From NCBI GenBank assembly GCA_003963225.1, contig RXKB01000001.1, positions 105,957-169,956 on the forward strand: a DNA stretch of 64,000 nt. Reading direction: 5' to 3'. Shown piece by piece: positions 41,814 through 43,499 of the stretch (position 1 is the first letter of the stretch; each line of letters starts with the position of its first letter). The stretch comes from Candidatus Babelota bacterium. GTDB taxonomy: Bacteria; Babelota; Babeliae; Babelales; Vermiphilaceae. Position numbers and translations under genes: made by a program. The notes under the pieces are model-generated. The model was not told the origin of the DNA. It made no database searches and worked only from the letters and a program-made list of their open reading frames with translations.

Positions 41814-43499
41814 TTATTCGTCTGCTTCGTTGATAGACGCAAAATCCGTCTTGCGCACCTCGTTGACGAGGGCCTGAGGATCCTTGCGCAACTCACGAAG
41901 GAGTGCGAAAACCTTGTCGGAGAAACCTGCCAGAACTGCGACGCTGTTCTCCGGGAACATCGCAGAGCCTGCACCCGCCAAGTCGAACGTCACGATAAAC
42001 GGAAGCGCGTTGTGCTTCTGCTCGTAACGACGACGCGCTGAGGTCGGGGCGCCGGCCTTGTCAGCCCACTCCTTGCCGAGTGTCCAACCTTCACCATCCG
42101 AGAGGATGATGATGTTGTCGTACTTCTCCTTCGCCTTGTCGAAGATGTCGTGGAAGTTCGTGCTGCCGCTGTGCCACTTGGACCGGATTTCTCCGGCCAA
42201 TTGGAACAACGGAGCCCGTGTGTTGACCGTGACATACTGGGCGTTGGTGGAGAATGCCATGAAGTCTGCGTTAGGCTGGCTCTTGAGCACAACCGCCGCA
42301 AACAACGAGCCGATACCGGCCGCGGACTCCTCGTTCCCACGAGCGCCCATTGAACCCGACTCATCAAGACATACCAGCGTACGTCCCGGGAGTACCGGAA
42401 TATTCGCCAGAGAGGTCTCGACTGCCTGCTCGATTGCGCGGGCCGCATCAGTGGCTCGGGGTAAGCCGGAGGCAACAACCTCCTTGTAGCCCTTCACGAA
42501 CTGGAACGGCAGAATCAGACTGCGCTGAACTGCCACAGGGTTGGTGAGTTGCTTGATGAGAGCGTCGACTGCACCAGGAGCCTGTTCCAGGATGTTGCGT
42601 ACGTTGCGGAGCGCGGCGAAGTATCCGAGCTTGCGCTCATCAAACAACCCACACCACGCTTCCTCCTTCTTGAGCTTGTCGGAGCCGGCAGCCGAGAGGC
42701 GAGCCTCCCAGGTATCGGTATTCTTCAGCTCACCACGGATGAACAAACGGAAGTCACCGGCGTTCTCCGCAGAAGGACGAGGATGCACAAGATTGAAGAC
42801 GTCGGCCAACGTGATGTTGCCTTCCGTCTTCTGGTACTTGGCCAGCTGATAACCGTCCAGCTTGCCGAGTGCACGAGCCAAGCCCTTCTTCAAAGGATAA
42901 GGCAGCGTCACCGGAACCTTCTTGCCGCGGCGACCATTGGGCTTGCGGATCGTCTTGCCTCCTCCGTAGAAGGCGAAGTAAGCCGACACAATCTCGATCG
43001 CATCGTCCGGGCGGAACACCACAGCTTCCACGAACTCACGAACCCAGGGATGCCCCTGGCCCTTGGTGTGGTAGCATACGGCAGCTGCGACGGCATGAGA
43101 GATGGAACGAAGACCGAGGACGCGCCGTGCCCAGACCGCGACTTGCGCGGCGAAGTACGGATCCTTCTGCACGAGCCTCTGCATACGGGACAGAACCGTT
43201 GCGTCGCTCTGGTAGAACTTGGTAGCGCGCTTCGTGAGAAGAGCGGTGAATACCAGGGAGAGCAACTCGAAATAGATCGACTTGCGGAAAGCCAGCCCAC
43301 CCGCTTCGTTCACGGTGTTAGGCGTGGCGTAGTGATGAGGCGCCGTGACCACAGGAGGCGGTGTGAGGCGTGCCTTGGTGCGCAGAACCCGTCGTTGCGT
43401 CATGGGCTTATTGGCCGCAGCCGCAGCAGCGGCGAGGGTGCGTGGAACAGAAGGGCGCCGAGTAGGCGTTACATTGAGTGTAGCAGCGAACTTGCTCAT
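41814..43499 (-). CDS. rsr: Ro60/Rsr orthologue (TROVE domain plus vWA domain)
   Basis: TROVE hallmarks: NEAGGLAF, DPYFAAQVAVWAR, RNVRNIL and ILPFQF. The C-terminal vWA MIDAS motif is LDESGSM ... SDGEG. Confidence 0.85.
   Translation of the reverse strand: MSKFAATLNVTPTRRPSVPRTLAAAAAAANKPMTQRRVLRTKARLTPPPVVTAPHHYATPNTVNEAGGLAFRKSIYFELLSLVFTALLTKRATKFYQSDATVLSRMQRLVQKDPYFAAQVAVWARRVLGLRSISHAVAAAVCYHTKGQGHPWVREFVEAVVFRPDDAIEIVSAYFAFYGGGKTIRKPNGRRGKKVPVTLPYPLKKGLARALGKLDGYQLAKYQKTEGNITLADVFNLVHPRPSAENAGDFRLFIRGELKNTDTWEARLSAAGSDKLKKEEAWCGLFDERKLGYFAALRNVRNILEQAPGAVDALIKQLTNPVAVQRSLILPFQFVKGYKEVVASGLPRATDAARAIEQAVETSLANIPVLPGRTLVCLDESGSMGARGNEESAAGIGSLFAAVVLKSQPNADFMAFSTNAQYVTVNTRAPLFQLAGEIRSKWHSGSTNFHDIFDKAKEKYDNIIILSDGEGWTLGKEWADKAGAPTSARRRYEQKHNALPFIVTFDLAGAGSAMFPENSVAVLAGFSDKVFALLRELRKDPQALVNEVRKTDFASINEADE

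What the first reader, a model, noticed from the sequence alone, without database searches (positions are those of the whole stretch)
41814..43499. Phage-encoded Ro60/Rsr orthologue inside an RNA-metabolism neighbourhood
The 561-aa protein has the TROVE hallmarks NEAGGLAF, DPYFAAQVAVWAR, RNVRNIL and ILPFQF. Its C-terminal vWA domain has an intact MIDAS motif (LDESGSM ... SDGEG).

In bacteria Rsr works with Y RNAs and exoribonucleases in structured-RNA quality control, and is often linked to RNA-repair genes. Here it shares one strand and block with the Y-like RNA array, a CCA-adding enzyme, a vWA/PP2C/kinase triad, a cysteine hydrolase and, at the window edge, an RlaP-like nucleotidyltransferase. 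Together these suggest a phage-carried RNA surveillance or repair toolkit.

The gene has its own strong terminator at 41744-41794.
Basis: partly seen in the sequence, partly recalled or inferred. Interest (0 to 1): 0.6.

Follow-up and report, generated by a model that had tools for sequence, protein, structure and literature searches.

The report
Jumbo-phage Ro60 protein, divergent lineage
An uncultivated giant phage encodes a genuine Ro60-type RNA-binding ring protein next to its partner small RNAs; phage Ro60 is already known, but this lineage differs from classical bacterial Rsr in two extra basic segments and an altered RNA recognition motif.

Summary
ORF 41814-43499 (minus strand, 561 aa) passes Pfam TROVE. 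Its predicted fold matches solved Ro60 structures best (Thermus phage phiLo, human, Xenopus, Deinococcus). All five MIDAS residues are invariant, and a strong terminator follows the gene.

It is not a strict Rsr orthologue: 24 bits against the NCBIfam Rsr equivalog (cut-off 900). A tree puts it in a 13-member clade of ~180-226-kb uncultivated phage contigs. That clade is sister to chromosomal TROVE genes of Verrucomicrobiota/Bacteroidota and far from the mycobacteriophage Rsr-type protein.

Clade-specific features:
- Two strongly basic inserts (N-terminal, and a loop beside the conserved LKKG RNA-contact helix).
- Eight upstream same-strand Y-like RNAs whose handle reads AGUAAYNG...GUUCAUC instead of CGAA.
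- One Y-like unit fixed ~30 nt before the start codon.

The neighbourhood claim is half right. The CCA-type enzyme, PP2C and RlaP are real. The "cysteine hydrolase" is unsupported, and replication genes lie inside the block.

Phage Ro60 plus Y RNAs is published (2014, 2021, 2025). This scan has noted the theme on other DNA (Felix O1-type phages) and the RNA array on this window. Verdict: a new variant of a known kind, of moderate interest.

The parts
41814..43499 (-). Ro60-type gene (561 aa): TROVE HEAT-repeat ring plus vWA domain
   Evidence: ORF and motifs. Pfam TROVE 65.6 bits. phrog_850 at 5.9e-43. AF2 model pLDDT 81, pTM 0.74. Foldseek top hits are Ro60 structures at E 1e-16 to 1e-11.
43329..43466 (-). 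Clade-specific N-terminal basic insert (about residues 12-57; residues 1-60 hold 10 K/R and no D/E), predicted disordered
   Evidence: Present only in the 13 jumbo-phage proteins and variable in length and sequence. Low pLDDT over residues 1-60; below 50 over residues 32-57. Charge count.
42405..43319 (-). TROVE / HEAT-repeat ring region (about residues 61-365)
   Evidence: Helical repeats in the model. Pfam TROVE. Aligned over its full length with phiLo Ro60.
42906..42965 (-). Clade-specific basic loop GGGKTIRKPNGRRGKKVPVT (residues 179-198), directly before the conserved LKKG helix (K204/K205)
   Evidence: A 17-residue insert found in 12 of the 13 jumbo-phage proteins (P0017 carries a shorter, divergent version). 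It is absent from 20 cellular and 9 other phage homologues. K204/K205 align with phiLo K141/K142, residues shown by mutation to contact RNA (PMC12135203).
41880..42383 (-). vWA domain (about residues 373-540) with MIDAS D379-x-S381-x-S383, T447, D468
   Evidence: Alpha/beta fold in the model. vWA structures appear as secondary Foldseek hits. MIDAS residues are invariant and align with phiLo's Ca2+ site.
41749..41794 (-). Intrinsic terminator after the Ro60 gene
   Evidence: 16-bp stem with 10 G-C pairs, 4-nt loop, then TTTTT.
43529..43595 (-). Leader unit H: a Y-like stem-loop-stem ending 30 nt before the Ro60 start codon
   Evidence: Model R1 scores 39.2 bits, E 1e-7. A unit sits at the same place in at least 8 of 9 related phages, with covarying stems and constant AUGUAAC / AUUCA loops.
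43739..43971 (-). Short Y-like units G (43739-43815), F (43823-43893) and E (43904-43971)
   Evidence: R1 scores of 27-81 bits. 11 of 14 pairs carry compensatory changes in alignment A1.
43980..44113 (-). Long YrlA-type unit D (handle plus permuted tRNA module)
   Evidence: Two-stem detector. Sub-threshold Rfam YrlA hit. Alignment A4.
45371..45799 (-). Long YrlA-type units C (45371-45516), B (45524-45658) and A (45668-45799)
   Evidence: Rfam YrlA 36.7 and 34.8 bits, below the gathering score of 69. 26 of 30 pairs carry compensatory changes. 91.7% of cells are paired against 42-55% when partners are slid, and 0 of 500 shuffles reach the observed score.
45885..45912 (-). Sigma-70-like promoter upstream of unit A (TTGACT, 16 nt spacer, CATAAT)
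   Evidence: Consensus scan, 10 of 12 matches. This is a pattern match only.
40762..41679 (-). Conserved 305-aa orphan gene directly downstream of Ro60 in all nine phages
   Evidence: Synteny. No cysteine. No Pfam or PHROG family. Confident model for residues 58-305 with no fold match in PDB or BFVD.
33688..35760 (-). CCA-adding-type nucleotidyltransferase (PolyA_pol head, RNA-binding and HD domains)
   Evidence: Pfam. Syntenic in all relatives.
37496..38398 (-). PP2C phosphatase of the vWA/PP2C/kinase-like trio
   Evidence: Pfam PP2C_2, 63 bits. The 576-aa neighbour has only a 'faint' Pkinase hit, and only in one relative.
63363..64000 (-). RlaP-family nucleotidyltransferase; the ORF continues beyond the window to about position 64508
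   Evidence: Completed from contig C1. Pfam RlaP 55.7 bits against a cut-off of 23. phrog_388.

Best explanation
The gene encodes a functional Ro60-type ring protein of an uncultivated jumbo phage of about 226 kb. It belongs to a TROVE+vWA lineage distinct from classical bacterial Rsr. The same lineage is common on the chromosomes of Verrucomicrobiota and Bacteroidota.

Most likely mechanism:
1. The protein binds the conserved stem-internal loop-stem 'handle' of the eight Y-like RNAs encoded just upstream on the same strand. The handle reads 5' AGUAAYNG ... GUUCAUC with 3' CUGUUC or AUUCA. Binding uses the outer ring surface around the conserved LKKG helix (K204/K205, R241, R255). The two clade-specific basic inserts enlarge that surface.
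2. The resulting particles present either a tRNA-like module (units A-D) or a plain hairpin (units E-H).
3. By analogy with Deinococcus/Salmonella Rsr and with phiLo Ro60, the particles engage host exoribonuclease (PNPase) or tRNA-handling enzymes. In this way they control the decay or repair of structured RNA during infection.
4. Unit H, fixed about 30 nt before the start codon, could let the protein feed back on its own translation or mark the processing site that frees the mRNA from the RNA array.

Shown here: the fold, the MIDAS site, lineage placement, the inserts, RNA structure and linkage, and conservation of the leader unit.

Inferred: RNA binding, the binding surface, the PNPase or tRNA-enzyme partners, and autoregulation.
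For: Fold and family:
- TROVE profile and phrog_850.
- AF2 model pLDDT 81. Its best PDB matches are all Ro60 proteins, at E 1e-16 to 1e-11 and TM 0.6-0.73.
- MIDAS residues are invariant and align with phiLo's Ca2+ site.

RNA-contact surface: four of phiLo's eight mutationally validated RNA-contact residues are kept, including the two with the largest effects (PMC12135203).

Lineage: the 13 phage proteins form one clade (99/99), sister (88/91) to the cellular group.

Clade-specific basic inserts.

RNA partners:
- Model R1 gives 44 hits, all on the Ro60 strand and all upstream, in nine phages.
- Covariation is strong: 26 of 30 pairs compensatory, 91.7% of cells paired against 42-55% when slid, 0 of 500 shuffles as high.
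- The same type of handle lies upstream of 54 of 80 cellular homologues: 117 hits on the gene strand against 1 on the other, and 93 of 93 upstream.
- The leader unit is conserved at a fixed distance from the start codon.

Precedent: phiLo Ro60 binds two upstream Y-like RNAs and attenuates host PNPase (PMC12135203). YrlA RNAs lie beside Ro60 in 254 bacteria and 22 phages (PMC4201824).
Against: The handle lacks the CGAA motif that phiLo Ro60 and classical Rsr recognise. Four of the eight phiLo contact residues are replaced (P200, E226, A232, N236). The binding mode is therefore extrapolated.

Pfam vWA_Ro60 is just under its cut-off.

A weak terminator-like hairpin lies between units G and H, so co-transcription of the array with the gene is uncertain.

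The host and its PNPase are unknown.

SD-less leaders are the rule on this contig, so the unstructured leader after unit H is not in itself a sign of special regulation.
Confidence: 0.8

Rival explanations
1. The protein's main clients are real tRNAs, not the Y-like RNAs. It would act as a chaperone or quality-control ring for the phage's 34 tRNAs, binding misfolded or damaged tRNA ends in its central cavity. The Y-like units would act only as regulators or gates.
For: The lineage is tied to tRNA genes. 65 of 80 cellular loci have tRNAs within 3 kb, 30 have 10 or more, and 99.6% of those tRNAs are on the gene strand. tRNA genes lie directly upstream of the gene in csAssE-Sib, Mvi-JY20 and a Xanthomonas phage. 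A TROVE gene is reported in 20 of 29 archaeal tRNA clusters (PMC6333295). Contig C1 carries 34 tRNAs on the same strand, a CCA-adding-type enzyme and RlaP.
Against: In this phage the tRNA island is 68 kb from the gene. What sits next to the gene is the Y-like array. Gene linkage does not show which RNA is the substrate. In Ro60 biology the two roles coexist, so this reading complements the best explanation rather than excluding it.
Confidence: 0.25
2. It is a plain orthologue of bacterial Rsr, recently captured from the host, and works exactly as the Deinococcus/Salmonella RYPER system does.
For: It has the same domain architecture and ring fold, with upstream YrlA-type RNAs carrying T, acceptor-like and D arms.
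Against: - Rsr equivalog: 24 bits against a cut-off of 900, while Bxz1 Ro scores 463 bits.
- Bxz1 lies on a branch of length 7.8 in the tree.
- No phage-clade protein nests inside the cellular group.
- YrlA hits stay below Rfam's gathering score and the CGAA motif is missing.
- The inserts are conserved across phages whose proteins are only 53-87% identical, which indicates long residence in the phage lineage.
Confidence: 0.04
3. The Y-like array is the main actor. It would work as a set of tRNA decoys that soak up host tRNA-targeting defence nucleases or tRNA-modifying enzymes. The Ro60 protein would merely stabilise these RNAs against exonucleases.
For: There are four distinct tRNA-mimic units, each with a 7-bp acceptor-like helix and canonical T and D arms, conserved as orthologous classes across the phages. 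Jumbo phages are known to counter attacks on tRNA (PMC7824862). Ro60 is required for stable accumulation of Y RNA in Deinococcus (PMC4201824).
Against: This is purely inferential. The units have no anticodon arm, which is the usual target of anticodon nucleases. The short units E-H have no tRNA-like part yet are equally conserved.
Confidence: 0.12
4. The gene is not phage-borne. Contig C1 would be a cellular or plasmid fragment, and the gene an ordinary bacterial TROVE gene.
For: The window comes from an assembly binned as a 2.4-Mb prokaryote genome. The nearest non-clade relatives are chromosomal.
Against: - C1 has 52% GC against about 32% for the bin's other large contigs, and its tetranucleotide usage is anticorrelated with theirs.
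- It carries 34 tRNAs, tail-fibre and head-decoration homologues, and GP88.
- Syntenic relatives are contigs of about 180-226 kb from unrelated samples.
Confidence: 0.03

Closest known systems
Ro60 of Thermus phage phiLo (PDB 9KOP/9L5Y; Hu et al. 2025, PMC12135203)
   Same: Both are phage-encoded HEAT-ring plus vWA proteins. phiLo Ro60 is the best sequence and fold match in the PDB. The MIDAS/Ca2+ site is identical. K141/K142/R178/K193 are conserved as K204/K205/R241/R255. Y-like RNAs are encoded upstream on the same strand. Both score below 30 bits against the Rsr equivalog.
   Different: - Only about 22% identity, and a separate branch of the tree.
- phiLo has two Yrl RNAs with a CGAA motif; here there are eight units with AGUAAYNG...GUUCAUC.
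- Four of phiLo's contact arginines are replaced.
- The two basic inserts are absent from phiLo.
- PNPase attenuation has been shown for phiLo and is untested here.
Bacterial Rsr with YrlA/YrlB or Yrn1 Y RNAs (Deinococcus, Salmonella, M. smegmatis) and mycobacteriophage Ro (Chen et al. 2014, PMC4201824; NCBIfam NF041674; Rfam RF02553)
   Same: Same domain architecture and fold (D. radiodurans Rsr 2NVO at E 5e-13). RNA genes lie upstream on the same strand within 4 kb. There is a mix of tRNA-mimic RNAs (YrlA type: V, T, acceptor-like and D arms) and plain hairpin RNAs (YrlB type).
   Different: - It is not a member of the Rsr equivalog: 24 bits against a cut-off of 900, with Bxz1 at 463 bits.
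- Rfam YrlA hits reach at most 36.7 bits against a gathering score of 69.
- The GNCGAAN0-1G motif is absent.
- Eight RNA units, against the two to four characterised per studied bacterium.
TROVE proteins listed among jumbo-phage RNA-repair components (Iyer et al. 2021, PMC7824862)
   Same: A jumbo phage with many tRNAs, a CCA-adding enzyme, an RlaP nucleotidyltransferase and a TROVE protein. [quoted passage not shown]
   Different: That survey covered cultured and deposited phages. This lineage has no close relative among 50,697 deposited phage records: no nucleotide match, and the polymerase is at most 24% identical over part of its length. No RNA ligase was seen in the window.
Chromosomal TROVE genes of Verrucomicrobiota and Bacteroidota embedded in tRNA gene arrays (loci L017-L096); compare TROVE genes in archaeal tRNA clusters (Morgado & Vicente 2019, PMC6333295)
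   Same: These are the nearest relatives outside the clade at 38-44% identity, and the sister group in the tree. They have the same kind of upstream handle-bearing RNAs on the same strand. One locus is followed by RlaP.
   Different: The cellular proteins are about 475 aa and lack both basic inserts. Their handle reads CAGUGAG...GUUACUUC. They sit beside 5-24 real tRNA genes, whereas the phage gene sits beside Y-like units only.

Membership tests
Ro60 / TROVE+vWA ring proteins (Pfam PF05731 with a vWA domain) | TROVE profile match above the curated cut-off | tested here: met
   65.6 bits against a cut-off of 23. The same ORF is the only TROVE match in the whole assembly.
Ro60 / TROVE+vWA ring proteins (Pfam PF05731 with a vWA domain) | HEAT-repeat ring closed by a vWA domain | tested here: met
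   AF2 model pLDDT 81, pTM 0.74. The top 13 PDB matches are all Ro60 proteins at E 1e-16 to 5e-11 over 508-561 aligned columns. Ring closure was not measured on the coordinates.
Ro60 / TROVE+vWA ring proteins (Pfam PF05731 with a vWA domain) | Intact MIDAS motif (DxSxS, T, D) in the vWA domain | tested here: met
   D379, S381, S383, T447 and D468 are invariant in 44 sequences and align with phiLo's Ca2+ ligands.
Ro60 / TROVE+vWA ring proteins (Pfam PF05731 with a vWA domain) | Pfam vWA_Ro60 (PF25045) above its cut-off | tested here: inconclusive
   24.8 bits against a cut-off of 27.7. Several clade members do carry the precomputed hit, and the fold agrees.
Ro60 / TROVE+vWA ring proteins (Pfam PF05731 with a vWA domain) | Partner Y-type RNA genes nearby on the same strand | tested here: met
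   Eight units lie 30-2300 nt upstream on the same strand. Covariation controls were passed.
Ro60 / TROVE+vWA ring proteins (Pfam PF05731 with a vWA domain) | Physical binding of Y RNA and of misfolded RNA ends | not testable with these tools
   Needs gel-shift or pull-down experiments.
Bacterial Rsr proper (NCBIfam NF041674 equivalog) | Equivalog score at or above the curated cut-off, or at least a full-length match | tested here: not met
   24.3 bits over residues 307-497 only, against a cut-off of 900. Bxz1 Ro scores 463 bits over its full length.
Bacterial Rsr proper (NCBIfam NF041674 equivalog) | Groups with the canonical Rsr lineage in a tree | tested here: not met
   The only canonical-type sequence available, Bxz1, is separated by a branch of length 7.8. 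No cellular Rsr sequence could be included.
Bacterial Rsr proper (NCBIfam NF041674 equivalog) | Partner RNA carries the GNCGAAN0-1G / CGAA motif and reaches the Rfam YrlA gathering score | tested here: not met
   The best YrlA score is 36.7 bits against 69. The 5' loop reads AGUAAYNG or AUGUAAYC in all units.
PHROG phrog_850 (phage 'RNA-binding protein', the TROVE type) | Near full-length profile match | tested here: met
   5.9e-43, residues 61-548 on profile positions 16-468 of 476.
RYPER-type complex (Ro60 / Y RNA / PNPase) | Y RNA tethers the ring to PNPase and changes its activity | not testable with these tools
   Host unknown. Known only by analogy with Deinococcus/Salmonella and phiLo (PMC4201824, PMC12135203).

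The most novel reading that the evidence does not exclude
The jumbo-phage clade has co-evolved a private protein-RNA code. Its two basic inserts, one of them beside the LKKG contact helix, would recognise the clade-specific handle (AGUAAYNG...GUUCAUC) and not the CGAA or CAGUGAG handles of other Ro60 lineages. This would keep the phage particle separate from any host Ro60 system. Through the handle-bearing unit H, fixed about 30 nt before its start codon, the protein would also repress its own translation once the Y-like RNAs are saturated. More broadly, the whole Verrucomicrobiota/Bacteroidota-type lineage would be a second, undescribed Ro60-Y RNA system wired to tRNA gene arrays.
Probability: 0.2. 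Interest if true: 0.7.

Novelty: new variant of a known kind. Interest (0 to 1): 0.45.

Why it matters
Ro60-Y RNA particles are conserved from bacteria to humans, yet their function in prokaryotes rests on three bacteria and one phage.

This protein and its relatives define a large, unstudied Ro60 lineage found in jumbo phages and in Verrucomicrobiota and Bacteroidota chromosomes. Its partner RNAs can be recognised by a simple handle motif different from CGAA. Chen et al. (2014) noted Ro60-bearing bacteria in which no Y RNA could be found; a second handle type may explain some of them.

The clade-specific basic inserts and altered handle give a natural experiment on how Ro60 reads Y RNA. The leader unit offers a testable autoregulation model. 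The tie to tRNA arrays, CCA-adding enzyme and RlaP bears on how giant phages keep translation running under host attack.

If none of this holds, the finding is still a well-supported annotation of a known kind of phage gene.

Tried and rejected
- tRNA and Rfam scans at curated thresholds found nothing in the window. YrlA appears only below threshold.
- Nucleotide search of the locus against 50,697 phage records: no match.
- Model R1, built from the phage short units, gave only marginal hits in the cellular loci. The reason turned out to be a different handle sequence.
- No Rfam YrlA hit at gathering score in 16 cellular loci, in phiLo or in the 3.5-kb Bxz1 locus.
- 'Cysteine hydrolase': rejected. 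The 305-aa neighbour has no cysteine. Neither it nor the 65-, 268- and 263-aa ORFs between TROVE and PP2C hit any hydrolase family.
- Structure of the 305-aa neighbour: confident model, but no significant match in PDB or BFVD. Weak resemblance of a small beta-barrel to OB folds (probability 0.18 or less) was not accepted.
- The first phmmer alignment to phiLo misaligned the HPRP motif. It was replaced by a 44-sequence MAFFT L-INS-i alignment for residue mapping.
- Donor or host inference from the tree was rejected. The phage clade is sister to the cellular group, not nested in it, and long branches meet near the root.
- An SD-less leader as a special feature of this gene was rejected. Only 16% of long ORFs on C1 have an SD-like motif, against 12% at random.
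- Burroughs & Aravind 2016 and Sim et al. 2020 are not held in the library. Their statements on TROVE-tRNA linkage could not be checked.
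Full report
**1. The observation**

An ORF of 561 codons runs from 43499 to 41814 on the minus strand.
- Pfam TROVE matches at 65.6 bits against a cut-off of 23. vWA_Ro60 scores 24.8 bits, just under its 27.7 cut-off.
- PHROG phrog_850 ('RNA-binding protein') matches nearly end to end at 5.9e-43.
- A 16-bp G+C-rich hairpin with a T-run lies at 41759-41794, 20 nt after the stop codon.

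**2. Where the window lies**

The window is positions 105957-169956 of contig C1 of a 2.43-Mb, 82-contig assembly.
- C1 is 226.5 kb at 52% GC and carries 34 tRNA genes.
- The bin's other large contigs sit near 32% GC, and C1's tetranucleotide usage is anticorrelated with theirs.
- The window holds tail-fibre and head-decoration homologues, GP88, RecA, DnaB and a PolA/UDG fusion.
- Close homologues of the protein (53-87% identity) lie on syntenic contigs of about 180-226 kb from unrelated samples.

C1 is therefore a jumbo-phage genome binned with an unrelated bacterium. It has no close relative among 50,697 deposited phages.

**3. Fold**

An AlphaFold2 model built on 56 homologues has pLDDT 81 and pTM 0.74. 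Residues 1-60 have low confidence (below 50 over 32-57), helical repeats run to about residue 365, and an alpha/beta domain follows.

Its best matches among solved structures are, in order:
- the TROVE/Ro60 protein of Thermus phage phiLo (9KOP, 9L5Y; E 1e-16, TM 0.73);
- human and Xenopus Ro60;
- D. radiodurans Rsr (E 5e-13).

Isolated vWA domains appear far behind.

**4. Functional residues**

I mapped residues in a 44-sequence alignment.
- The MIDAS residues D379, S381, S383, T447 and D468 are invariant. They align with D322, S324, S326, T391 and D416 of phiLo Ro60; D322, S324, T391 and D416 bind Ca2+ in the crystal (PMC12135203).
- Mutation of eight basic residues weakens RNA binding in phiLo. 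Four are kept here, including the two with the largest effect: K141, K142, R178 and K193 correspond to K204, K205, R241 and R255.
- The other four, R137, R163, R169 and R173, correspond to P200, E226, A232 and N236. P200 and N236 are nearly invariant in this lineage.

**5. Lineage**

- Against NCBIfam's Rsr equivalog the protein scores 24 bits on a C-terminal stretch only (cut-off 900).
- Mycobacteriophage Bxz1 Ro scores 463 bits over its full length.
- The biochemically validated phiLo Ro60 scores 29 bits.

Failing the equivalog therefore separates lineages. It does not argue against Ro60-type function.

A maximum-likelihood tree of 45 proteins shows the following.
- The 13 jumbo-phage proteins form one clade (99/99), with one short-contig protein as sister.
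- This clade is sister (88/91) to a large group of about 475-aa proteins from Verrucomicrobiota, Bacteroidota and other phyla, plus a 635-kb megaphage.
- The phiLo, Caulobacter, Xanthomonas, Ralstonia, Microcystis and HGTV-1 proteins form another group.
- Bxz1 lies on a very long branch.

Long branches meet near the root, and the phage clade is not nested within the cellular group. No donor can be named.

Several of the cellular genes are truly chromosomal. One is in an 8.9-Mb Opitutaceae chromosome, and one is in a cultured Prosthecobacter. A conserved ZnuA-[array]-TROVE order recurs amid housekeeping genes.

**6. Clade-specific features of the protein**

The start is correct, because MSKF... 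matches the N-terminus of the wider family.
- Between that peptide and the conserved NxAGGxAF strand, the jumbo-phage proteins carry 40-50 extra residues. These vary in sequence, are rich in Pro/Arg/Ala/Thr, and are predicted disordered. Residues 1-60 hold 10 K/R and no D/E.
- A second insert of 17 residues, consensus GK(T/S)IRKPxGxxGK(K/R)VPVT (7 K/R, no D/E), lies directly before the LKKG contact helix. It is found in 12 of the 13 clade members (P0017 has a shorter, divergent version) and in none of the 29 other homologues aligned.

**7. The partner RNAs**

Earlier follow-ups of this scan had already described the array (e1-3911169, e1-3911170). I re-derived it independently.

Eight units lie upstream on the gene's strand:
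- four long units, A-D, of 132-146 nt;
- four short units, E-H, of 67-77 nt.

Each unit has the same parts:
- an outer stem;
- a conserved asymmetric internal loop (5' AGUAAYNG or AUGUAAYC; 3' CUGUUC or AUUCA);
- an inner stem;
- an invariant GUUCAUC;
- an apical module.

In A-D the apical module is a permuted tRNA: a V hairpin, a T arm, a 7-bp acceptor-like hairpin and a D arm. That is the YrlA layout. Rfam YrlA matches reach only 36.7 bits against a gathering score of 69.

A covariance model of the short units finds 44 matches in nine phages, all upstream of the gene and on its strand.

Covariation is strong.
- Short units: 11 of 14 pairs carry compensatory changes.
- Long units: 26 of 30 pairs do.
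- Long units, controls: 91.7% of cells are paired against 42-55% with slid partners, and 0 of 500 shuffles reach the observed score.

**8. The leader unit**

Unit H (43529-43595) lies outside the range of the earlier array finding (43729-45799). It ends 30 nt before the start codon.

A unit occupies the same place in at least eight of the nine phages. Its stems covary (AGAGGG/CCCUCU, AGGCCUG/CAGGCCU, GGGGG/CCCCC, GCCAGG/CCUGGC) and its loops are constant. A C/A-rich leader without a Shine-Dalgarno motif follows.

That leader is not special to this gene. Only 16% of long ORFs on C1 have an SD-like motif, against 12% at random.

The position suggests either feedback by the protein on its own mRNA or a processing boundary. 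Neither is shown.

**9. The lineage as a whole**

- Among 80 loci with the nearest cellular homologues, 65 have tRNA genes within 3 kb, 30 have ten or more, and 99.6% of those tRNAs are on the gene's strand.
- A handle of the same design but different sequence (CAGUGAG...GUUACUUC) lies between the tRNAs and the gene.
- The generic pattern occurs 117 times on the gene strand and once on the other, in 54 of 80 loci.
- All 93 hits in fully flanked loci are upstream, 83 of them within 1 kb.
- The exact phage-clade version is absent from these loci.

This Ro60 lineage therefore travels with its own non-CGAA Y-like RNAs, and the jumbo-phage clade has a private variant. A TROVE gene in 20 of 29 archaeal tRNA clusters has been reported (PMC6333295). 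I found no paper on the bacterial case, but two key reviews were not available.

**10. Neighbourhood**

Confirmed, all on the minus strand:
- a CCA-adding-type enzyme (PolyA_pol and HD domains);
- PP2C;
- an RlaP nucleotidyltransferase at the window edge.

Not confirmed:
- The kinase: only a 'faint' hit, in one relative.
- The 'cysteine hydrolase'. The conserved 305-aa gene next to TROVE has no cysteine, no family match, and a confident model without any fold match.

DnaB, PolA/UDG, RecA, a resolvase-like gene and a ubiquitin-like module lie between the Ro60 gene and RlaP. The block is the general early/replication region, not a dedicated RNA operon. The order TROVE-305 aa-...-PP2C-576 aa-CCA enzyme is, however, conserved in all relatives.

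**11. Comparison with what is known**

- Ro60 genes in phages have been known since the mycobacteriophage genomes (cited in PMC4201824).
- YrlA RNAs beside Ro60 were reported in 254 bacteria and 22 phages (PMC4201824).
- TROVE, CCA-adding and RlaP genes are listed as jumbo-phage RNA-repair components (PMC7824862).
- phiLo Ro60 binds two upstream Y-like RNAs and attenuates host PNPase (PMC12135203).
- This scan has noted Ro60-like proteins with partner RNAs beside tRNA arrays many times on other DNA, mostly Felix O1-type phages. It has no sequence look-alike of this protein.

**12. Verdict**

This is a real, intact Ro60-type gene of an uncultivated jumbo phage. It is a new variant of a known kind: a distinct lineage with two basic inserts, an altered RNA handle and a handle-bearing leader. 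RNA binding, partners and regulation are inferred.

Noticed in passing
loci L017-L096 (cellular homologues, gene at about 3001 on the + strand): The nearest cellular TROVE genes (Verrucomicrobiota, Saprospiraceae and others) sit directly downstream of dense same-strand tRNA arrays. 65 of 80 loci have a tRNA within 3 kb, 30 have 10 or more (up to 24), and 99.6% of the tRNAs are on the gene strand. This has been reported for archaeal tRNA clusters (PMC6333295). I found no report for bacteria.
   Followed up: partly
L018:2380-2990 and 53 other cellular loci: One to five Y-like units per locus carry the handle CAGUGAG...GUUACUUC and lie between the tRNA array and the TROVE gene. There are 117 hits on the gene strand against 1 on the other. 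One unit (L018, about 2478-2600) seems to hold a tRNA-like part in normal D-anticodon-T order rather than the permuted YrlA order.
   Followed up: partly
window 40762-41679 (-): A 305-aa gene is conserved directly after the Ro60 terminator in all nine phages. Its first 57 residues are disordered and the rest is confidently modelled (pLDDT mostly above 85), yet it matches no fold in PDB or BFVD and no family.
   Followed up: yes
window about 44842 (inside the + strand HNH ORF 44553-45140) and L005 about 6126: An identical 32-nt string (GGACTGACAGGTAATACAACGCTTACCTTTTC) occurs inside the antisense HNH cassette that splits the Y-like array here. It also occurs in the equivalent reverse ORF of L005, a phage whose Ro60 is only 56-57% identical. 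This suggests a recently mobile homing-endonuclease cassette shared between diverged phages.
   Followed up: no
contig C1 against the rest of assembly G000: C1 (226.5 kb, 52% GC, 34 tRNAs) is compositionally foreign to the bin: the bin's other large contigs sit near 32% GC and tetranucleotide correlation with C1 is negative. The bin's other contigs range from 20 to 60% GC, so the bin is heterogeneous.
   Followed up: partly
contig C1:53389-80086 (outside the window): All 34 tRNA genes of the phage lie in one 27-kb island on the same strand as the Ro60 gene, but 68 kb away from it. One has a 2-nt anticodon call by ARAGORN.
   Followed up: no
window 58452-61316 (-): A 954-aa protein combines an N-terminal uracil-DNA-glycosylase-superfamily domain with a family-A DNA polymerase domain. 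Its best matches among deposited phages are at most 24% identical over less than half its length.
   Followed up: no
L100, L104, L105 (phages csAssE-Sib, Mvi-JY20, Xanthomonas 10KY502B): In three unrelated phages, annotated tRNA genes lie 26-117 nt upstream of the TROVE gene on the same strand.
   Followed up: no
window 43603-43622 (-): A weak terminator-like hairpin with a U-run lies between unit G and leader unit H and is conserved in several relatives. It may separate the RNA array transcript from the Ro60 mRNA, or act as an attenuator.
   Followed up: no
A possible functional link was not examined here.
   Followed up: no
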